The notes below the pieces were generated by a model. That model was not told the origin of the DNA and ran no database searches. It saw nothing but the letters and a program-made list of their open reading frames with translations. From a virus, in IMG/VR virus record IMGVR_UViG_3300015263_000627: DNA of 64,000 nucleotides, one strand, 5' to 3'. A program made the position numbers and the translations under genes. Each line of letters opens with the position of its first letter. Position 1 is the stretch's first letter. Shown here one piece after another: positions 3,655 to 44,017 of this stretch.

Positions 3655-6074
3655 CTAGACCTTTTCAAAGTCTTGAATCTGTTATTCGAGAACATCTAGC
3701 AAGAAAGGACCTTCATGAAGCTGACAATGTGGGGGAACGGGGAGTTATTGCATCCACCGATACACAAAATGTTTCTACGCCGACTGAAACCGCGCCTGAT
3801 AAAAAGAACAAAAAGAAAAAAGAAGACGCAATTCAGAATGATCCCAACACAATTGAAATAGGAAAAACATCACCAATTGATTTAGCTCCAACAACTGACG
3901 ATCCCAAGATCACTGATTTGGTTGATAAAAAAGACAAGAAAATAGTTGAAGAAAAAGAAAAAACTTTGGGTAAGGGCATTCATTATCGTAATTATCATAA
4001 TCATATTCGTAAAGAAGTAATGAGAATTTTATCAGCTAATCAAAATTTAGCGGATAAACACGAAATAAGACCAAGAGGGGACCAAAAAAATGAAGAAAAG
4101 ACTTCGCAAATTATGGACCAAAGCAAAAAGATTCTTACCCAAGAAATCCAAGAAACGCCCATCATCGATCAAAATCGAAATGCCGAAGAAAAAATTTCGC
4201 ATTTAGATGAACGTAAAGACCAAACTGCCGAAGATGAACGTGTTTCAATGTATCATCGTGCCGGAAACGCCGAAGCCACTAAGAAACACCGAAAAGAAAA
4301 GATAGTTCATCGAACCCGACAAACTATCAACGGAATACGTTTGCGTCAAAGAAAGATCAAGGAAGAAACCATTGATGAAACAAGTGATGTAGCGTTGAAA
4401 CGTTATAGACTTGCCCTTGCGCGAAGGCTTGGAATACCGGAAAATAAAATCCCCAAAATGAAAGGGGAATACAAAGATCATGAACATATTCCAATTGCTC
4501 CAACCCCATTGCTTGATAAAGGAAAATATCAACGAGTAGATTCGCATGGTGTTGTGCGTGAGGATACATTTGATCCATTTGCTGCTACTGGACAGTTGAT
4601 TTCAAATATTATCAAAACAATTGCTCAAGCAAGAATGACACATAATAAACGAGCTAAAAACTCGCAATATAAAAATCATCCCCATCAAACTCAAAAAGCT
4701 CCTCCACCAGCTTCGGTTCCTCCGATACAGTCGGTCCAAAAACCTCCTCCGACACAATCAGCGTTGCCTCCACAATCGGGACAACCATCTGTGCAAGCCC
4801 CGGCTCCAAAACCAAAGAAACCAAAGTCTCCAACAGTATCTTATAAGATTGGACAAAAATGGAAACCGGCTCGACAAAAATTTAGAAACAAAGCCGAAGC
4901 TAATGCATTTATTCTATCAGCACTCAAAAGCAAGGGAGCAGGCTCCGGAGTTACATGGCGAATCAACGAAGGAATGATGAAGCGTTGGTTGATGGATATG
5001 GAATACCATGCCGATACTGTTCTACAAGCCAAGAAAGGTGACCGCAAAGCTGCTAAACAGGAATTTTTGAAGAAATTCCCCAACCAAGGTCATGTATTCG
5101 ATAATCATATGAAAGCTAATGATGAATACAATAGCGGACAGCAACAAGAAGAAACCATCAATGAACTTTATGGAAAAGGAACAGATTTATTCAATATTTA
5201 TCGTCACTGGAAAGATGAAGCTGAGAATGACGAAACAAAAACTAGTGCCGAAGCTAGAACAAAAACAAATAGAGCAGCTAATCTTATAAATCGTGGTAGA
5301 AATTACAAGAATTGGAAAAAGAATGTAGCTTCAACTTCTAAAAAGTTTTATCAACAAGATTTAGAACGTAATAAAAAGGAAATGTCCGAAGAAACTATCA
5401 ATGAAATCTCCAAAAGGAGAGCCTTGGATTATATTGGGGGAGCCGTTGGATCAGTTGCCAATAAAAACATGAATTTGGGATATGAAATTGGTATTGGTAA
5501 AAAGGACGAAAAACGTTCCGAAAAAACCCGTAAACTAGGAAATAGGCAAGCATATATATCAATAGCAGCAAATAAGCTTGCTAAAAAGTGGGTCCGGGTT
5601 CCGGCAACCGAAGAAGTTGTTATGGAAGCAAAAAGAGCCGGTCTAACCCCGCGCGATACCGGCGATCAGCATATCATTAACCAACTAAGAACAGCCCAAG
5701 ATTTTGGTACTCATTCCCTTCGATTCAAGGATAATTCAACCCTTGACGTTGATCGAGCAACGGCTGACAAGATTTTGGACAAATATGAGGGATTGCGAAC
5801 CTCTATTGACAAAGAATCCATGACCAATAGGCTATGGGCTTCGAAGCAATCCTTTAACGATTATATGAGTGGAAAGCCGGAAACTGTCCAAAAATCCGGA
5901 CCTTCCATGCCGTTTGGATTTGTTCCCAAGGGTCTAAAAGCCGGTAAAACCGGAGCATCTCGTAATCCAAGTCCTCTTGACCATAAAATAGCCAAGCCTT
6001 TTAGCTCAAAAGAGCTTGAAGATAAGGGAATCAAGTATCGAGAAGGGGAAAAGGACCCGAAATTTTGGACATAA
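3651..6074 (+). CDS. Large virion/internal head protein with cleavage-motif modules
   Basis: 807 aa with EETIDE, EETINE (x2), RINE and VVME motifs, plus a Pro/Gln-rich linker. Confidence 0.55.
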   Translation: MTRPFQSLESVIREHLARKDLHEADNVGERGVIASTDTQNVSTPTETAPDKKNKKKKEDAIQNDPNTIEIGKTSPIDLAPTTDDPKITDLVDKKDKKIVEEKEKTLGKGIHYRNYHNHIRKEVMRILSANQNLADKHEIRPRGDQKNEEKTSQIMDQSKKILTQEIQETPIIDQNRNAEEKISHLDERKDQTAEDERVSMYHRAGNAEATKKHRKEKIVHRTRQTINGIRLRQRKIKEETIDETSDVALKRYRLALARRLGIPENKIPKMKGEYKDHEHIPIAPTPLLDKGKYQRVDSHGVVREDTFDPFAATGQLISNIIKTIAQARMTHNKRAKNSQYKNHPHQTQKAPPPASVPPIQSVQKPPPTQSALPPQSGQPSVQAPAPKPKKPKSPTVSYKIGQKWKPARQKFRNKAEANAFILSALKSKGAGSGVTWRINEGMMKRWLMDMEYHADTVLQAKKGDRKAAKQEFLKKFPNQGHVFDNHMKANDEYNSGQQQEETINELYGKGTDLFNIYRHWKDEAENDETKTSAEARTKTNRAANLINRGRNYKNWKKNVASTSKKFYQQDLERNKKEMSEETINEISKRRALDYIGGAVGSVANKNMNLGYEIGIGKKDEKRSEKTRKLGNRQAYISIAANKLAKKWVRVPATEEVVMEAKRAGLTPRDTGDQHIINQLRTAQDFGTHSLRFKDNSTLDVDRATADKILDKYEGLRTSIDKESMTNRLWASKQSFNDYMSGKPETVQKSGPSMPFGFVPKGLKAGKTGASRNPSPLDHKIAKPFSSKELEDKGIKYREGEKDPKFWT

Positions 6075-34631: not shown

Positions 34632-34752
34632 GGGGATGTAGCTTAAGGTGGTAAAGCATCTCAACATTTATTCTTCTAATGATATCGTAGAAGAACCGTC
34701 AGATATCGGGCGGTTGTTTAGAAAGATGAGGGTTCGACTCCCTCCATTCTCT
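34632..34752 (+). ncRNA. tRNA-like RNA with branched, expanded anticodon arm
   Basis: Acceptor ggggatg/cattctc, D arm gctt..aagc, T arm gaggg-ttcgact-ccctc; anticodon loop replaced by two hairpins. Confidence 0.65.
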
Positions 34753-35418: not shown

Positions 35419-35501
35419 GGGCAACTGGCATATGGAAACTGGTACACCTAACGGTTTTAGAAACCGCGCTTTTGAGAGTTCGAGTCTCTCGTTGCCTACC
35501 A
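35419..35501 (+). tRNA. tRNA-Leu(TAG)
   Basis: cggt-ttTAGaa-accg; long variable region; CCA. Confidence 0.85.
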
Positions 35502-35505
35502 ATAC

Positions 35506-35590
35506 GTGGCTGTGGGATAAGTTGAAATAGGAACACACAGCGGGCTTAAAATCCGTTCCTTTGCGAGTTCGAGTCTCGCCAGCCACACCA
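35506..35590 (+). tRNA. tRNA-Leu(TAA)
   Basis: gcggg-ctTAAaa-tccgt; CCA. Confidence 0.85.
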
Positions 35591-35595
35591 ATAAT

Positions 35596-35680
35596 GTCGT
35601 TGTGGGCTAATTCGAAATAGGCACACGTTACTGCCTCAAAAGCAGCGCCTTTGCGGGTTCGAATCCCGCCAACGACACCA
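35596..35680 (+). tRNA. tRNA-Leu(CAA)
   Basis: ctgc-ctCAAaa-gcag; CCA. Confidence 0.85.
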
Positions 35681-35848: not shown

Positions 35849-36722
35849 GGCGGTTTAGCGTCGTCAGGATAGCTTGGAGTGATCCAAGTTAAAGCTGTGT
35901 ATCCTATTAAACAGCGCCCGCAAGGGTCCATCTAAACAAGCCTAGTCGTCCCCGCGAGGGGCTATCAGGGATGATGGTAGTATATATGACGACAAGGTGT
36001 GGTCCGAAAGGATAGGGGTAAGCCTCTGCGAAAGCAAGCCCAACCTAATATCCCGCAAGGATAGCCACACATGCAAACTTGTCTAGTAGGTATCGACAAT
36101 AGGTAGTTACAGTAATCCGATGCTTCGCGGCAAAGGGTGGGTAGCATGATCTTCGGGAGAACGGACCCCGCTATTCGGAGGGGAGACGTATATCCTAGAG
36201 TCAGGTTGAGTAACTCGCAAGGTGAAAAACAGTTGGTGTGTTGTATTTTGTTTCCCAAAAGGAAGCGAAGCAACCGAACCAGCACATCAAAATAGGTTTA
36301 GAAAAAATGATCCATGGCGGATCATCTGCATATGAAGCAGAAAGGATTGGTTCGATTCCAATTTTTTTCACCAGAGAAAACGCAAAGTCTGGTTCGATGT
36401 TGATTGAGAAATGGTCTAAACCAATGGCGGCTTGCCGTAACATTGGCGATGAAGCCCCGCAAGGGTGAAGTTGTTATTTGATCGAATTATCCTAATGGGT
36501 TAGCGCCCATGAATAGCTCGCAAGGCTAAGGGTGAGATGATCGGTGAGTAGATCAACATGACAAGTGAAACGCTACACTTCAAAAAAAGCGACCTTGTTA
36601 CACTACATGCCGAAACGGTATGTGGATGAAAGGGAACCCTTATAGTGCGCTAGTCGCCGCACCCGAGCAGGGTGGGGGATAATCCTAGAAGGTGTAACGC
36701 TAAACCCTGTAGTCTCAAGGGT
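35849..36722 (+). ncRNA. GOLLD-like giant structured RNA
   Basis: ggtttagcgt (35852) pairs with acgctaaacc (36697); many GNRA-capped hairpins; size and tRNA-array context fit GOLLD. Confidence 0.68.
36301..36373 (+). tRNA. tRNA-like element inside the GOLLD-like RNA (anticodon ATG)
   Basis: gaaaaaa/ttttttc acceptor, tctgc-atATGaa-gcaga, attgg-ttcgatt-ccaat, ACCA. Confidence 0.6.
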
Positions 36723-37698: not shown

Positions 37699-37770
37699 AG
37701 GGGAGTAGCTTAAGATAAAAGCGGGACTTCATGAATCCAGTTGGTAGTTCATATCTATCCTCCCCTGCCA
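37699..37770 (+). tRNA. tRNA-Met(CAT), degenerate
   Basis: aggggag/ctcccct; weak anticodon stem with ttCATga; CCA. Confidence 0.6.
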
Positions 37771-37777
37771 ACATTAT

Positions 37778-38254: not shown

Positions 38255-38845
38255 ATGTATTACACCATTTACAAAATAACCAATAAAACCAACAACAAAT
38301 ATTATATAGGCAAACATCAAACCAATAACATTGATGATGGTTATATGGGTTCCGGTAAATTATTACGCCGCGCTATCAATAAACATGGAATAAACAATTT
38401 TGTTAAGGAAATTCTCCATATATTTGATAATGAACAGGATATGAATAATAAGGAAAAAGAACTTGTTGTTATTGGAGAACAATCATACAACTTATGTGAT
38501 GGTGGTAAAGGTGGGTTTGGATATATAAACAAACTTCCAAATCAATCTTGGCGTATTAAAACTGGAAAAATTACTTCGCAAAAATTAAAAAATAAATCGG
38601 GGAATGATCATTGGAAAAATATATCCAGATTATCTCATGAAAAATATTCGAATTTAGGATTTCGTAGTTATTCAAAAAAACAACAAAATAAATGGAAATT
38701 ATTAGGCAGTAAAAACGCACAAACACCAGAAGCTAAAGAAAAAAGAGCAAATACATGGAAAATAAAAATACAGAATGGTTGGAAACCCCACAATTGGAAG
38801 ATGAAGAATGTGAAGTCTGTCGTTATACAGGTCAGAAACCCATAA
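38255..38845 (+). mobile_element. GIY-YIG (SegB-like) homing endonuclease in the tRNA array
   Basis: YTIYKITNK...YYIGKH...GYMGSG...YNL; late promoter ATAAATA at 38211. Confidence 0.88.
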
Positions 38846-40804: not shown

Positions 40805-41132
40805 TCGGAAGCGTAGATGATCGCGCTACGGTGAGGAAAGTCGGGTCTGCTAATACAACCGTAATGGGTAACGCCCATCCACAGTAATGTGAGGATTAGA
40901 GCTACAGGGACGATCCTATTAAGTTAGGGATGAAACGAGCAATCTCTACGGGCAGCAATCTCAAGTTCTCCGAAGGGTATGTATTCCCATCACTTAAATG
41001 TGTGTTAGGTAATGGTAGAGAGCAAAGACCTAAATGGAAACGTTTGGGCAAGTCAAATGATCGTCATATATTGATTATAATACGACCATTTCTATAATCA
41101 ATATGAACAGAAACCCGCTTATTCGCTTCCGA
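40805..41132 (+). ncRNA. rnpB: RNase P RNA (bacterial type, compact)
   Basis: P1 tcggaagcg/cgcttccga; CR-I GAGGAAAGTCGGG; gggtaacgccc (P8); TGAAACG; CR-V AACAGAAACCCGCTTAT. Confidence 0.88.
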
Positions 41133-41225
41133 GAAATACTTACCGGGATAAATACCATGTATATCCCGGCATGGCTCGTCCGGGATTTTTTATTTTAGAG
41201 CCATAATAATAAAGAGGTAAAATAC

Positions 41226-41528
41226 ATGGTTCTTCCTATTGTAGTAGCTGCTGTTGTTGCTGGTTCGCTAGTAACAAGTGGAATTGTTGTTCATGAAAGG
41301 AATCCTGTTGTTGGAAATGTTCTAATTGGAGCCGGGGTTGGAACTATTATCGGCGGTGGTCTTGGAACTGCTGCTGGTGCTGGTTTCAGTGTCGCTACTG
41401 GAGCAACAACCGGAGGAGTTATTGGAGGTATTGGCGGCGTTGTCGTTGGTCCTCATGTTTCTTATGCAAAGACAAGATATGTGGTATCACATTATCCTGA
41501 TCCGGCGAAAAATATAAGTGGTTACTAA
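41226..41528 (+). CDS. Glycine-zipper membrane protein
   Basis: Repeated GxxxG motifs; late promoter at 41147; RBS GAGGT. Confidence 0.65.
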   Translation: MVLPIVVAAVVAGSLVTSGIVVHERNPVVGNVLIGAGVGTIIGGGLGTAAGAGFSVATGATTGGVIGGIGGVVVGPHVSYAKTRYVVSHYPDPAKNISGY

Positions 41529-41588
41529 TTTTATCACGTAAAAATTTACTAATACCGGTTGGGGGGACCACAATCCCCCCAATCATTT

Positions 41589-41664
41589 GGTTCCATAGTT
41601 TAACTGGATAAATCACAACCCTGCGAAGGTTGAGTTCCGTGTTCGAGTCACGGTGGAACCTCCA
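41589..41664 (+). tRNA. tRNA-Arg(GCG)
   Basis: caacc-ctGCGaa-ggttg; A20; CCA. Confidence 0.88.
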
Positions 41665-41668
41665 TTTC

Positions 41669-41750
41669 GCGCATATATCCCCTCACGCTTCGAACGTGAA
41701 CAAAGGTAACTGGAAGGAAGATACGGGTTCGAATCCTGTTATGCGCTCCA
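41669..41750 (+). tRNA. Rearranged tRNA-Arg(TCG)-like RNA
   Basis: Acceptor gcgcata/tatgcgc, cacg-ctTCGaa-cgtg, canonical T arm, CCA; D-loop motif AACTGG lies 3' of the anticodon arm. Confidence 0.7.
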
Positions 41751-42098
41751 TTTAAATCTGCCAGCATGGAATTTGCGATGGCAATTTGCACAAAAAACAA
41801 TACACTTAGAAACTTCGTCTAATATACGTTCTTTAGTGCTACCATTAGCTAATAATCTTGATATGGTATTATCTTTTATTTTTGGGTTCATATGATGAAA
41901 ATCTAAACAAGAAAAATCATCTTCACCACAACGAACACAATTATATTGAGGCATAATTTCTTCTCGAAACCATTTCTTTTTAGCTTGTTTGTTTGTGAAG
42001 GAACGTTTATAAACTTTTTTTTTATTTCGTATGTAAGATTCATGAGCAGCTTGTTTCTGTTTTATAGGGTCTTTATAAGGCATAGTATCTCCTATCAA
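41739..42098 (-). mobile_element. HNH endonuclease in the tRNA array
   Basis: CVRCGE...LDFHH...KCIVFCANCHRKFH; late promoter on - strand at ~42110. Confidence 0.85.
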
Positions 42099-42154
42099 AT
42101 GATACTATCTATTTAGGGTTCAAATTTTCAAAATTTTTTGAACCATCAATTCAA

Positions 42155-42230
42155 CTGGGTGAATATCGTGCTAGAAGATTACTTGCCTTGGAAGCAAGTG
42201 GACGAGGGGCAGAGCCTCGCACCCAGACCA
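42155..42230 (+). tRNA. tRNA-Pro(TGG)
   Basis: cttgc-ctTGGaa-gcaag; T loop GGCAGAG; CCA. Confidence 0.85.
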
Positions 42231-42317
42231 ATTCGTGTTATTAAATATGCCCGCTAGTTAGCGGCTCGTATCAGTCCATGGCTCTGATCGAAACGAGAAA
42301 ACAACAATAACACGAAT
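42231..42317 (+). ncRNA. Unassigned three-way-junction RNA
   Basis: attcgtgtta/taacacgaat closes ccgct/agcgg and ctcgt-atcag/ctgat-acgag. Confidence 0.5.
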
Positions 42318-42324
42318 GCTATAA

Positions 42325-42399
42325 TGCCGTTTAGTTCAATGATAGAACGTCACGCTCTGAACGTGAATGTCGGTGGTTTGATTCCATCAACGGCAGCCA
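42325..42399 (+). tRNA. tRNA-Gln(CTG)
   Basis: tcacg-ctCTGaa-cgtga; U1-A72; CCA. Confidence 0.88.
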
Positions 42400-42400
42400 A

Positions 42401-42535
42401 TTAGGCGTTGAGAATAGCTTTTCCGCCTAGATATGCCAATGCTCCAATACCAACAATCGGCAATGTAGCAATATATACTAAGCCGATGAATGGAGCCGCA
42501 AAGAATAAAGCAATATTTTTAATTTTGGTACGCAT
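42401..42535 (-). CDS. 44-aa membrane peptide
   Basis: RBS AAGGAAG; MRTKIKNIALFFAAPFIGLVYIATLPIVGIGALAYLGG. Confidence 0.55.
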   Translation of the reverse strand: MRTKIKNIALFFAAPFIGLVYIATLPIVGIGALAYLGGKAILNA

Positions 42536-42606
42536 AATTTTCTTCCTTTCTACTGGACTCGTTGCATAATTTGTGCCAACGAATGTCCTCCAAAATATAG
42601 AAGGAA

Positions 42607-42635
42607 TTGACTTACCAAACAACATATGGTATAAT
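42607..42635 (+). promoter_or_regulatory. Sigma70 promoter inside the tRNA array
   Basis: TTGACT-17-TATAAT. Confidence 0.72.
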
Positions 42636-42675
42636 AGCGTATAACAAAATTATTCGAAGTATGAAAAAGATATAT

Positions 42676-42750
42676 GAACTAGTGCCGGAATTGGCTACGG
42701 GGCGGTCTGCAAAATCGTTTATAGGGGTTCGAACCCCCTCTAGTTCTCCA
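42676..42750 (+). tRNA. tRNA-Cys(GCA)
   Basis: gcggt-ctGCAaa-atcgt; U73; CCA. Confidence 0.9.
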
Positions 42751-42755
42751 ATAGT

Positions 42756-42837
42756 ACCCATGTAACCGAGTCTGCCTTCTAAGCAGTTAATCGTAGTGGA
42801 GTTGAAAACGGGGGTTCAAATCCCTCCATGGGTTCCA
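42756..42837 (+). tRNA. Rearranged tRNA-Arg(TCT)-like RNA
   Basis: acccatg/catgggt, ctgc-ctTCTaa-gcag, TAGTGGA D-loop motif 3' of the anticodon arm, T arm, CCA. Confidence 0.7.
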
Positions 42838-42909
42838 GTTAGAGGTTTTTTATGTATCAAAATATCAATGAATATATGCAATATGGTTTTTATTCTGGAA
42901 GAACTATTT

Positions 42910-42985
42910 ACTCGCGTAGTTCAGTGGAAAGAACGACAATTTCCTAAATTGTTGGTCCCCGGTTCGATCCCGGGCGCGAGTTCCA
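42910..42985 (+). tRNA. tRNA-Arg(CCT)
   Basis: acaat-ttCCTaa-attgt; CCA. Confidence 0.9.
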
Positions 42986-42989
42986 ATTC

Positions 42990-43074
42990 GCCTTAGTATC
43001 GGACCTGTTGTTCTAAACAGGCAAATAATAAACCGTAATGGACTATAGGGGTTCGATTCCCCTCTAAGGCTCCA
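42990..43074 (+). tRNA. Third rearranged tRNA-like RNA (TCT in an 8-nt loop)
   Basis: gccttag/ctaaggc, cctgt-tgtTCTaa-acagg, TAATGG motif 3', agggg-ttcgatt-cccct, CCA. Confidence 0.6.
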
Positions 43075-43089
43075 TTAGAAAGGTAAATC

Positions 43090-43704
43090 ATGGTTACGCT
43101 AATTGGTGACGTTCACGGCAAATATGGTGAATATAAACAAATTATAAAAAGGCATAAAAATTCTATTGCCTTGGGAGATATGGGACTTGGATTTTTCCGT
43201 TTTGATCATCATGAAGGGAAAATTCCAATGGCTAATCCTCCGTATGATTACATGGTGAAATATAATGCTCGATTTATTCGAGGCAACCATGATAATCCGG
43301 AAGTTTGTAAAAAACATACCCAATGGATACCGGATGGAACTATCGAAGGTGATATGTTCTTTCTTGGCGGGGCATTTTCAATAGATCATATGTATCGTCT
43401 TGAAGGGTATAGCTGGTGGAAAGATGAAGAATTGTCACATGAAGAATTTGACAAGATCATCGATCCCTACCGGAAAGCTAAACCAAGAATTGTGATAACT
43501 CATGATTGTCCTTTGCGGATGGTTCCTTATGTTGGTTCACACCATATTAGGGACAATTCGAGAACTCAACAATTCCTGCAATCATTGTTCGAGTTTCATC
43601 AACCCGAATATTGGTATTTTGGTCATCACCATAAGTCATGGAAGATGATTTCAGATAAAACAACATTCCGATGTTTAGCTGAACTTGAGACATTGGAAAT
43701 CTAA
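43090..43704 (+). CDS. Calcineurin-like metallophosphoesterase
   Basis: GDVHG, LGD.G, RGNHD, ITHDCP, FGHHH. Confidence 0.88.
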   Translation: MVTLIGDVHGKYGEYKQIIKRHKNSIALGDMGLGFFRFDHHEGKIPMANPPYDYMVKYNARFIRGNHDNPEVCKKHTQWIPDGTIEGDMFFLGGAFSIDHMYRLEGYSWWKDEELSHEEFDKIIDPYRKAKPRIVITHDCPLRMVPYVGSHHIRDNSRTQQFLQSLFEFHQPEYWYFGHHHKSWKMISDKTTFRCLAELETLEI

Positions 43705-43850
43705 CCGTTGTCGGGGCAACGTAAATAATCCCCCCTCAATTGAGGTTCTACCCGAATACGAAGTGCATAGCCACCGTCGCACCAACCAAGGATATCGGGA
43801 GACATTCGGTTCAAAGGCGTGAGAACCAGCAATTAGAAATAGAGATAAAA

Positions 43851-43936
43851 GGAATGAACAAGCCGAGAGGATCGGCAACTGTTTGCTAAACAGATTGTTC
43901 CGAGAGGAATACGGTTCGAATCCGTGTCATTCCGCC
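43851..43936 (+). tRNA. tRNA-Ser(GCT)
   Basis: ctgt-ttGCTaa-acag; V arm; CCA. Confidence 0.87.
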
Positions 43937-43942
43937 AATAAT

Positions 43943-44017
43943 GCGCGCGTGGGTCATTGGTTGATCGTCAGCCTTCCAAGCTGTTCCAAGCGGGTTCGAT
44001 TCCCGCCGCCCGCTCCA
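43943..44017 (+). tRNA. tRNA-Gly(TCC)
   Basis: cagc-ctTCCaa-gctg; U73; CCA. Confidence 0.88.

What the first reader, a model, noticed from the sequence alone, without database searches (positions are those of the whole stretch)
41669..43074. Family of three Arg tRNA-like genes with a rearranged arm order
At 41669 (TCG), 42756 (TCT) and 42990 (TCT-like), the acceptor stem, U8-A9, T arm, U73 and CCA are normal. However, the anticodon hairpin comes first and the D-loop consensus (TAACTGGAA, TAGTGGA, TAATGG) lies 3' of it. That motif is bulged from a helix that pairs back with the 5' segment (tcc|cct with agg|...|gga; ac|cga with tcg|...|gt; t|cgg with ccg|...|a), as if the anticodon arm were inserted inside the D arm. 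They supply exactly the Arg anticodons (UCG, UCU) missing from the canonical set (GCG, CCU), which hints at function. This is a candidate undescribed tRNA architecture, either a nuclease-evading decoder or a decoy.
Basis: partly seen in the sequence, partly recalled or inferred. Interest (0 to 1): 0.85.

Follow-up and report, generated by a model that had tools for sequence, protein, structure and literature searches.

The report
Phage arginine tRNAs with transposed D-arm
Three genes in this phage's tRNA cluster are arginine tRNAs in which half of the D arm and its loop sit after the anticodon arm instead of before it; this non-cloverleaf layout is kept by selection in many phages, standard tRNA finders miss it, and I found no published description.

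Summary
Genes at 41669-41750 (UCG), 42756-42837 (UCU) and 42990-43074 (UCU, 8-nt loop) have normal acceptor, anticodon and T arms, U73 and CCA, but no D hairpin. A D-loop-like motif (UAAYUGGA) lies 3' of the anticodon arm, and the 3 nt before it pair with the segment after U8-A9.

They belong to a large, almost purely viral family. I collected 106 distinct members from 90 loci. The long-range helix covaries (98-100% paired at two positions, against 20-33% when slid). The Levitt pair R15-Y48 covaries (A-U 95, G-C 7).

Identity nucleotides follow the anticodon. All 89 Arg members carry A after G19, the ArgRS determinant A20. All 17 Ile/CAU members carry U there and have A73.

Canonical and rewired Arg tRNAs never duplicate an anticodon in the arrays examined, and CGA plus AGA make up 43% of this phage's Arg codons. 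The genes are most likely working Arg decoders with a canonical-like tertiary core built from a permuted chain. Why the chain is permuted is unknown. Decoy and pseudogene readings are disfavoured.

Expression and charging are untested. This scan found the same family earlier on other DNA (Felix O1-like phages). I found no published description.

The parts
41669..41750 (+). Gene 1: rewired tRNA-Arg(UCG), 82 nt including U73 and CCA
   Evidence: R1 covariance model 76.8 bits. Rfam tRNA 34.6 bits with the D arm deleted. ARAGORN makes no call.
41678..41682 (+). Gene 1 segment X (UCCCC). C41679-C41680 pair with G41705-G41706 (helix B). It runs straight into the anticodon stem.
   Evidence: Anchor-based pairing and family covariation.
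41683..41699 (+). Gene 1 anticodon arm: 5-bp stem and loop CUUCGAA; anticodon UCG at 41690-41692
   Evidence: Read from the sequence and the CM alignment.
41704..41715 (+). Gene 1 helix B 3' strand (AGG) followed by the D-loop-like motif UAACUGGAA (A14, A15, G18, G19, A20)
   Evidence: A follows G19 in all Arg members.
41723..41746 (+). Gene 1 T arm (ACGGG/UUCGAAU/CCUGU) and acceptor 3' strand. U41722 is the partner (Y48) of A15.
42756..42837 (+). Gene 2: rewired tRNA-Arg(UCU), 82 nt including U73 and CCA
   Evidence: R1 75.2 bits. Rfam tRNA 35.6 bits with the D arm deleted. Near full-length homologues in Caulobacter and Brevundimonas phages.
42765..42770 (+). Gene 2 segment X (ACCGAG). AC is the helix A 5' strand, CGA is the helix B 5' strand, and G is a spacer.
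   Evidence: Helix A and helix B covariation.
42771..42787 (+). Gene 2 anticodon arm, loop CUUCUAA; anticodon UCU at 42778-42780
42791..42802 (+). Gene 2 helix B 3' strand (UCG), D-loop-like bulge UAGUGGA (G15 paired with C42809 as Y48), then helix A 3' strand (GU)
42990..43074 (+). Gene 3: rewired tRNA-Arg(UCU)-like, 85 nt including U73 and CCA, with an 8-nt anticodon loop
   Evidence: R1 55.4 bits. No Rfam tRNA hit. No ARAGORN call.
42999..43003 (+). Gene 3 segment X (UCGGA). CGG pairs with CCG at 43033-43035.
   Evidence: CGG/CCG is the commonest helix B type in the family.
43004..43021 (+). Gene 3 anticodon arm: stem CCUGU/ACAGG and loop UGUUCUAA. UCU lies at 43012-43014, with an extra G43010 before U33.
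   Evidence: The CM alignment shows a one-base insertion in the loop. No other member among roughly 125 family matches seen has it; one other carries a longer insertion in the anticodon loop.
43033..43042 (+). Gene 3 helix B 3' strand (CCG) and D-loop-like motif UAAUGGA. An 11-nt A-rich linker lies before it (43022-43032).

Best explanation
The three genes are elongator tRNAs for arginine of a phage-specific structural class.

Layout. The D-stem 5' strand and the D loop (canonical positions 10-21) have been moved from between A9 and position 22 to between the anticodon arm and the T arm. The chain order is: acceptor, U8-A9, strand X (playing the role of 22-25, continuous with the anticodon stem), anticodon arm, a 3-11 nt linker, a 3-nt strand that pairs with X (role of 10-12), the D loop (A14, R15, G18, G19, A20), a linker ending in Y48, the T arm, and the acceptor 3' strand.

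Fold. The secondary structure is not a cloverleaf. The tertiary contacts that build the L-shaped core appear to be kept: U8-A14, the R15-Y48 Levitt pair and G18G19 with the T loop.

Inferred steps. The RNAs are cut out of the array transcript. RNase P can act because the acceptor/T minihelix is canonical, and the phage encodes its own RNase P RNA 0.5 kb upstream. They already carry CCA. Host ArgRS charges them through A20, C35 and U36/G36. They then read CGA/CGG (gene 1) and AGA/AGG (gene 2), codons for which the array has no canonical tRNA.

Gene 3 is a third copy with one extra base in the anticodon loop, and its decoding behaviour is open.

Status of the evidence. The architecture, its conservation, its covariation and its identity signatures are shown. 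Expression, charging, decoding and the selective reason for the rewiring are inferred.
For: 1. Family membership. CM R1 gives 76.8, 75.2 and 55.4 bits for the three genes, against 33 bits or less for canonical tRNAs.

2. Helix covariation on alignments not fitted to the structure.
- MAFFT alignment A1: 95.2% of cells paired against 62% in shuffles and 38-50% when slid. The middle helix B pair reads GC 22, CG 10, AU 2, UA 1, UG 1. The helix A pairs read AU 7/GC 6/CG 1 and CG 11/AU 1/UA 1.
- Anchor-based analysis of 106 distinct sequences from 90 loci: helix B positions paired at 100%, 98% and 62%.
- Sliding the partner by 1-3 nt gives 20-33% paired, against 85% in register (39 sequences).
- Helix A in the 30 members with a 6-nt X: 88% paired in register against 13-52% off register, with the types AC/GT, GC/GC, GT/AC, CA/TG and AA/TT.

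3. Tertiary Levitt pair. R15 against the base before the T stem gives A-U 95, G-C 7, G-G 2 and other 2. On A1 it is 94.7% paired against 29% or less when slid.

4. Identity signatures. All 89 members with Arg anticodons (UCU, ACG, UCG, CCU, GCG) have A after G19. I recall A20 as the major ArgRS determinant from textbook knowledge. All 17 members with GAU, UAU or CAU have U there and A73. All five Arg tRNAs in the window, canonical and rewired, share U73.

5. Non-redundancy of anticodons.
- Window: canonical GCG and CCU, rewired UCG and UCU.
- Caulobacter phage Ccr10: rewired ACG, canonical UCU.
- Pseudomonas phage Bitten: rewired UCU, canonical ACG.
- Loci L053, L078 and L332: 3-4 rewired Arg genes and no canonical Arg.

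6. Demand. CGA (92) plus AGA (77) make up 43% of 395 Arg codons in the window's long ORFs.

7. Distribution. The family is viral. About 45 of 117 pattern matches in viral contigs score above 50 bits with R1. Only 3 of 80 do in the cellular-genome collection, and one of those lies in a 25-tRNA array. Members are present but unannotated in cultured Caulobacter, Brevundimonas, Pseudomonas (including PAK_P2) and Xanthomonas phages.
Against: There is no RNA-level evidence.

RNAalifold on A1 predicts only the acceptor, anticodon and T helices, not the 2-3 bp long-range helices.

Single-sequence folds of genes 1 and 2 are no more stable than shuffled sequences (z = -0.5 and -0.7).

The third helix B position is a standard pair in only 62% of members, with recurrent A.C and C.A. 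In gene 1's subfamily helix B has only two conserved G-C pairs.

Both census patterns fixed part of the sequence (anticodon loop CTTCTAA, or GTAAYTGG). The Arg/Ile proportions and the A15 frequency are therefore biased samples.

Gene 3's 8-nt loop departs from every other member I saw and could mark a decaying copy.

The three-dimensional model is inference from covariation only.
Confidence: 0.75

Rival explanations
1. Sub-hypothesis on the selective reason: the rewired core lets a working phage tRNA escape a host or rival factor that recognises the canonical D arm or core. Such a factor could be a tRNA-targeting defence nuclease, a toxin or a modification enzyme. The tRNA stays acceptable to ArgRS (or IleRS), EF-Tu and the ribosome. 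This is the 'nuclease-evading decoder'.
For: The class is essentially confined to phages. It is restricted to a few specificities (Arg, Ile/CAU) rather than spread over all tRNAs in the same arrays. Published work proposes that phage tRNAs counter host anticodon nucleases, including colicin D, which is listed among the examples (PMC10264068).
Against: No nuclease or defence gene is linked to these genes in any locus I read. Known evasion examples change the anticodon loop, whereas these loops are canonical (CUUCUAA, CUUCGAA, CUACGAA). Some phages keep canonical Arg tRNAs next to rewired ones, which is odd if the canonical core were the liability. Nothing here tests sensitivity.
Confidence: 0.2
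2. The genes are non-decoding tRNA mimics. They would act as decoys that titrate a tRNA-binding enzyme or nuclease, or merely as RNase P/RNase Z processing punctuation in the array transcript.
For: tRNA finders reject them. The same array holds other tRNA-shaped RNAs that cannot decode, for example 34632-34752. A T5-like 'tRNA-OTHER' shares the CCG-UAACUGG-T-arm half but lacks an anticodon arm.
Against: A decoy or punctuation mark needs neither a canonical 7-nt anticodon loop with U33 nor a full set of Arg anticodons. It also needs no A20 that switches to U20 plus A73 when the anticodon is Ile, and no anticodon complementarity with the canonical genes.
Confidence: 0.08
3. The genes are degenerate tRNA pseudogenes, left by rearrangement or by homing-endonuclease damage in a recombination-prone array.
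For: A GIY-YIG endonuclease gene lies in the array (38255-38845). Gene 3 has an aberrant 8-nt loop and an 11-nt A-rich linker.
Against: Perfect acceptor and T stems, compensatory changes in every helix and in a tertiary pair, and conservation over 90 loci from very different phages are incompatible with decay. At most this reading could apply to gene 3 alone.
Confidence: 0.03
4. Gene 3 only: the extra base in the anticodon loop makes it a +1 frameshifting or four-base (AGA-N) decoder rather than an ordinary AGA reader.
For: The loop UGUUCUAA has 8 nt, while every other feature of the class is intact.
Against: The insertion lies 5' of U33, not inside or 3' of the anticodon as in classical suppressors (from memory). 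An alternative 6-bp stem with a 6-nt loop is possible. No homologue with this loop was found. No target site was looked for.
Confidence: 0.12

Closest known systems
Canonical class I bacterial/phage tRNA-Arg (Rfam RF00005), for example the window's own tRNA-Arg(GCG) at 41589-41664 and tRNA-Arg(CCU) at 42910-42985
   Same: 7-bp acceptor, 5-bp T stem with a T-Psi-C-type loop, 5-bp anticodon stem with a 7-nt loop and U33. U8, A14, R15-Y48, G18G19 and A20 are present. The discriminator is the same (U73) and CCA is encoded.
   Different: There is no D hairpin between positions 9 and 26. The 10-21 segment lies 3' of the anticodon arm. The D stem forms between two distant segments and encloses the anticodon arm. 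The 'variable region' is 22-25 nt long.
D-armless mitochondrial tRNAs (for example metazoan mt-tRNA-Ser(AGY), nematode mt-tRNAs; review PMC7609411)
   Same: No D hairpin 5' of the anticodon arm, only a short connector between the acceptor and anticodon stems. Standard finders miss them.
   Different: The mitochondrial forms lose the D loop and its T-loop contacts and are shortened and flexible. The phage class keeps a full D-loop consensus, a covarying Levitt pair and a canonical T loop, and it is longer than a normal tRNA (78-85 nt).
Class II tRNAs (Leu, Ser, Tyr, Sec) with a long variable arm
   Same: A long segment lies between the anticodon and T arms.
   Different: In class II tRNAs that segment is a self-contained hairpin added to a complete cloverleaf. 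Here it carries the D loop and pairs back to the 5' segment, and the specificity is Arg (or Ile), which are class I tRNAs.
Circularly permuted tRNA genes of Cyanidioschyzon merolae and allo-tRNAs with 8/4 or 9/3 acceptor/T configurations (PMC5389517)
   Same: Natural departures from the standard gene order or cloverleaf that were found by custom searches.
   Different: Permuted genes give a canonical mature tRNA after processing. Here the 5' and 3' ends are the normal acceptor ends, so the mature RNA itself is rearranged. Allo-tRNAs change helix lengths, not the order of the arms.
Rewired phage tRNAs noted earlier in this scan (Felix O1-like tRNA-Arg(UCU); pseudoknotted tRNA-Tyr)
   Same: The Arg architecture is the same: a split D arm around the anticodon arm. 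The 'class B' Arg and Tyr forms I saw in viral contigs add a helix between the two linkers.
   Different: This window carries three copies, including UCG and an 8-nt-loop variant, in an uncultured large phage.

Membership tests
Canonical tRNA (Rfam RF00005 / ARAGORN cloverleaf) | 7-bp acceptor stem, T arm with a conserved loop, discriminator and 3' CCA end | tested here: met
   All three genes have perfect 7/7 acceptor and 5/5 T stems, a TTCRAWT loop, and U73 plus CCA.
Canonical tRNA (Rfam RF00005 / ARAGORN cloverleaf) | D hairpin (10-25) between position 9 and the anticodon arm | tested here: not met
   Only 5-6 nt separate A9 from the anticodon stem. The Rfam alignment deletes 15 model positions there.
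Canonical tRNA (Rfam RF00005 / ARAGORN cloverleaf) | Detected by the family's own tools at their thresholds | tested here: inconclusive
   Rfam scores genes 1 and 2 at 34.6 and 35.6 bits (gathering score 29) and has no hit for gene 3. ARAGORN makes no call for any of the three.
Canonical tRNA (Rfam RF00005 / ARAGORN cloverleaf) | 7-nt anticodon loop with U33 and a purine at 37 | tested here: met
   Genes 1 and 2 have CUUCGAA and CUUCUAA. Gene 3 fails this feature (8 nt, UGUUCUAA).
   R1 scores 76.8, 75.2 and 55.4 bits over the full model length. Family members score 47-84 bits; the next matches (up to 41 bits) are canonical tRNAs and the pseudoknotted class B genes.
   In the window, gene 2 has CGA/UCG plus AC/GU, gene 3 has CGG/CCG, and gene 1 has CC/GG only.
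   Gene 1 A-U, gene 2 G-C, gene 3 A-U. Family totals are A-U 95 and G-C 7.
tRNA-Arg identity (ArgRS substrates) | A20 in the D loop, C35, and U36 or G36 (E. coli-type determinants, from established knowledge) | tested here: met
   All three genes have GG-A and anticodons UCG or UCU. In the family, 89 of 89 Arg members have A, against U in 17 of 17 Ile/CAU members. Actual charging is not testable here.
D-armless mitochondrial-type tRNA | Loss of the D loop and of D-loop/T-loop tertiary contacts; a shortened molecule | tested here: not met
   The D-loop consensus and a canonical T loop are retained, the Levitt pair covaries, and the length is 82-85 nt.
Class II tRNA | Self-contained variable-arm hairpin plus a complete D arm | tested here: not met
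   The 22-25 nt region has no hairpin of its own and pairs with segment X.

The most novel reading that the evidence does not exclude
Phages maintain a second, non-cloverleaf solution to the tRNA fold: a chain-permuted core that still makes the L shape. They use it for selected specificities (Arg, Ile) because it makes those decoders invisible or resistant to host factors that read the canonical D arm. Within this window, the 8-nt-loop copy is a programmed four-base or frameshifting reader.
Probability: 0.15. Interest if true: 0.92.

Novelty: new variant of a known kind. Interest (0 to 1): 0.8.

Why it matters
The cloverleaf is treated as universal for bacterial and phage tRNAs, and annotation tools assume it. 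This family shows that the tRNA core can be assembled from a different chain order.

Such genes are common in phages, including cultured Caulobacter, Pseudomonas, Xanthomonas and Brevundimonas phages, where the matched stretches carry no tRNA annotation.

Practical consequences:
- Phage tRNA complements are under-counted for Arg (AGA, CGA and CGU readers) and Ile, and codon-compensation analyses inherit that error.
- The Felix O1 genome paper, for example, expected an AGA tRNA it did not find (PMC3185647).

The family also offers a natural experiment on which tertiary contacts ArgRS, IleRS, EF-Tu, RNase P and the ribosome really need. It provides a new scaffold for orthogonal tRNA design.

If the rewiring proves to be a counter-defence, it adds a new layer to phage-host conflict over tRNAs.

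Tried and rejected
1. Megablast of 41000-44000 against cultured phages found nothing. Homologues appeared only with blastn on the single genes.

2. A search for relatives of the neighbouring metallophosphatase gave one distant viral contig (L001), which has no rewired tRNA.

3. No whole genome is held for the window.

5. My first loose acceptor/T-arm scan was too noisy to use and was replaced by a strict one.

6. The Lactobacillus phage LpeD hit is an ordinary class II tRNA-Ser, not a family member.

7. Many pattern matches were ordinary tRNAs. In scan 1 they were tRNA-Glu genes whose D arm contains CTTCTAA. In scan 2 they were tRNA-Ser(GCU) genes whose variable arm ends in GGGTAACTGG. Both sets were excluded.

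8. Splicing or gene-level permutation that yields a canonical mature tRNA was considered and rejected. No simple excision restores the canonical order, and the gene ends are the normal acceptor ends.

10. Literature searches found no description of this layout. Three papers were also read: the review of non-canonical tRNAs (PMC7609411), the phage tRNA evasion paper (PMC10264068) and the Sf14 tRNA study (PMC12482277). This covers only the open library I could search.
Full report
**The locus.** The window carries an 11-kb RNA island (about 34.6-44.7 kb). ARAGORN finds 24 tRNAs there. Rfam adds more, together with a GOLLD RNA and a class A RNase P RNA. The flanking genes are typical of large lytic phages: ribonucleotide reductase, NAMPT, an NMNAT/Nudix protein, a GIY-YIG endonuclease, a metallophosphatase and an M24 peptidase. 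No whole genome is held for the window.

**The three elements.**
- Each has a perfect 7-bp acceptor stem, U8-A9, a perfect 5-bp T stem with a TTCRAWT loop, U73 and CCA.
- In each, an anticodon hairpin begins only 5-6 nt after A9.
- In each, a 22-25 nt segment between the anticodon and T arms holds a D-loop consensus: UAACUGGAA, UAGUGGA and UAAUGGA.
- ARAGORN calls none of them.
- Rfam's tRNA model reaches genes 1 and 2 (34.6 and 35.6 bits) only by deleting the D arm and inserting 19-20 nt. It misses gene 3.

**Homologues.** Gene 2 has near full-length, unannotated homologues inside the tRNA arrays of Caulobacter phiCbK-like phages and Brevundimonas jumbo phages, both with anticodon ACG. It also has partial matches to Pseudomonas phages with anticodon UCU. 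Gene 1 resembles an unannotated 90-nt ACG gene in Xanthomonas phage BUDD. A further search found the Pseudomonas type in 14 Pseudomonas phage records, including PAK_P2, none of them annotated as a tRNA.

I then ran two pattern scans of IMG/VR. One was anchored on the UCU anticodon loop plus a distant T loop. The other was anchored on the D-loop motif lying close to the T loop and did not constrain the anticodon. After parsing, they gave 106 distinct sequences of this layout from 90 loci.

**Secondary structure.** On a MAFFT alignment of 38 members (A1, not fitted to any structure), the proposed structure is 95.2% paired. Shuffles give 62% and slid controls give 38-50%. The two best pairs of the long-range helix B read CG 29/GC 3/UA 1 and GC 22/CG 10/AU 2/UA 1/UG 1.

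An anchor-based analysis takes columns from fixed landmarks, never from complementarity. It gives helix B paired at 100%, 98% and 62%. Sliding the partner by 1-3 nt drops pairing from 85% to 20-33%. The third position often shows A.C or C.A. In gene 1's subfamily it is not a pair at all, so that helix has only two G-C pairs.

Members with a 6-nt segment X, which include gene 2, have a further 2-bp helix A. It forms between the first two bases of X and the two bases after G19-A20. It is 88% paired in register against 13-52% off register, with the types AC/GT, GC/GC, GT/AC, CA/TG and AA/TT.

RNAalifold alone does not recover these short helices. Single-sequence energies are unremarkable. The case therefore rests on covariation, not thermodynamics.

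**Tertiary signatures.** U8 and the A of the motif (A14) do not vary. The next base (R15) covaries with the base just before the T stem (Y48): A-U 95, G-C 7, G-G 2 and other 2. On A1 this pair is 94.7% paired against 29% or less when slid. This is the Levitt pair of canonical tRNA. Together with the invariant GG and the canonical T loop, it indicates that the motif is a real D loop docked on the T loop.

The simplest reading is as follows. Segment X takes the place of strand 22-25, since it is continuous with the anticodon stem through a one-base spacer, as 25-26-27 are. The 3 nt before the motif take the place of 10-12. So the block 10-21 has been transposed to the 3' side of the anticodon arm, and linkers of 3-4 nt and 4-8 nt replace the paths of 44-45 and 45-48. 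This three-dimensional picture is inference.

**Identity and use.** All 89 members with Arg anticodons have A directly after G19. The anticodon counts are UCU 51, ACG 24, UCG 7, CCU 5 and GCG 2. A at that position corresponds to A20, the major ArgRS determinant by established knowledge.

The 17 members with GAU, UAU or CAU all have U there, and all have A73. Both signatures follow the anticodon, as expected of charged tRNAs and not of decoys.

In the window all five Arg tRNAs share U73. The rewired genes supply UCG and UCU, and the canonical genes supply GCG and CCU. No other tRNA in the array has an Arg anticodon. The same complementarity holds in Ccr10 and Bitten. Some contigs (L053, L078, L332) carry three or four rewired Arg genes and no canonical one in the stretch held. 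CGA and AGA make up 43% of the Arg codons in the window's long ORFs.

**Distribution.** A covariance model of the class (R1) separates members at 47-84 bits from canonical tRNAs at 33 bits or less in the window. In the fetched loci the next matches reach 41 bits; they are canonical tRNAs and class B genes.

In the cellular-genome collection the same pattern was matched mostly by unrelated sequence. Only 3 of 80 loci were members. One of those sits in a phage-like 25-tRNA array on a MAG contig.

**Gene 3.** It is a good member (CGG/CCG, A15-U48, A20) but has an extra G before U33, which gives an 8-nt loop, and it has an 11-nt A-rich linker. No other member I saw has this loop; one other has a longer insertion in its anticodon loop. 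I cannot decide between three readings: an ordinary AGA reader, a frameshifting or four-base reader, and a decaying duplicate.

**Literature.** Seven full-text searches and three targeted readings found no description of this architecture. The 2020 review of non-canonical tRNAs lists Sec, Pyl, allo-, His and mitochondrial forms but nothing from phages and nothing permuted. The Felix O1 genome paper remarks that an AGA tRNA was expected but not found.

Earlier notes of this scan describe the same Arg family in Felix O1-like phages and a related pseudoknotted Tyr class. I met that 'class B' form for Arg and Tyr in the viral loci.

**Verdict.** The architecture is real, under selection and widespread in phages. 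The genes are most likely working Arg decoders. The reason for the rewiring is open, and no RNA-level evidence exists yet.

Noticed in passing
window 35419-35500, 35506-35589, 35596-35679: Three tRNA-Leu-like genes (UAG, UAA, CAA) with CCA. They lack the long variable arm of bacterial tRNA-Leu. Instead, 23-26 nt lie before the anticodon arm (conserved GAAAYWGGNACAC), and a 2-3 nt segment after A9 (GGA, GGC, GC) is complementary to the short variable region (UCC, GCC, GC). ARAGORN misses two of them and calls the third Gly(gcc).
   Followed up: partly
L250, L262, L269, L276, L281, L283, L284, L295, L302, L303, L306, L328, L329, L337, L342, L346, L347 (viral contigs): The same transposed-D-strand layout is used by tRNAs with Ile anticodons GAU and UAU, and by CAU. 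All have U instead of A after G19, and all have discriminator A73.
   Followed up: partly
for example L030:7259-7342, L063:5433-5515, L034:3908-3993: A second rewired class ('class B'). A 9-nt 5' segment such as GCCCCCACA pairs with GUGGG inside the loop of a 27-nt variable arm, which makes a pseudoknot. It is seen for Arg(UCU) in about 25 contigs and once for Tyr(GUA). Some class A members with long linkers (L311, L326, L314) look intermediate between the two classes.
   Followed up: partly
L123:2470-2541 (Escherichia phage KookSpook, T5-like; annotated tRNA-OTHER): A tRNA-like gene with a normal acceptor and T arm and the CGG...CCG-UAACUGG-UGGAAGAU half of the rewired core, but no anticodon arm between the two strands. 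Many T5-like phages match the same stretch.
   Followed up: no
L124:1494-1583 (Xanthomonas phage BUDD): A rewired tRNA-Arg(ACG) that carries an extra GCUC/GAGC hairpin between the D-loop motif and the T arm. It therefore combines the transposed D strand with a true variable-arm hairpin.
   Followed up: no
L308:2260-2345: A rewired tRNA-Arg(UCG) with an insertion of about 10 nt that duplicates part of the anticodon loop (CUUCGAAACUUUCGAAACUAG). It may be an intron or a slippage product.
   Followed up: no
window 40805-41136 and 36231-36721: A class A RNase P RNA (139 bits) and a GOLLD RNA (180 bits) lie inside the tRNA array. The GOLLD match encloses a tRNA-like element at 36301-36373 with anticodon AUG.
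   Followed up: no
window 34632-34752 and 37699-37771: Two further odd tRNA-shaped genes. The first is a 121-nt one with a large insertion in place of the anticodon loop. The second has a CAU triplet in what looks like an enlarged (about 9-nt) anticodon loop and a non-standard T loop.
   Followed up: no
L135:2091-5084 (contig assigned to a Blastocatellia MAG): A 25-tRNA array with a rewired tRNA-Arg(UCU) at 4746-4821. It looks like a phage or prophage binned with a bacterial genome.
   Followed up: no
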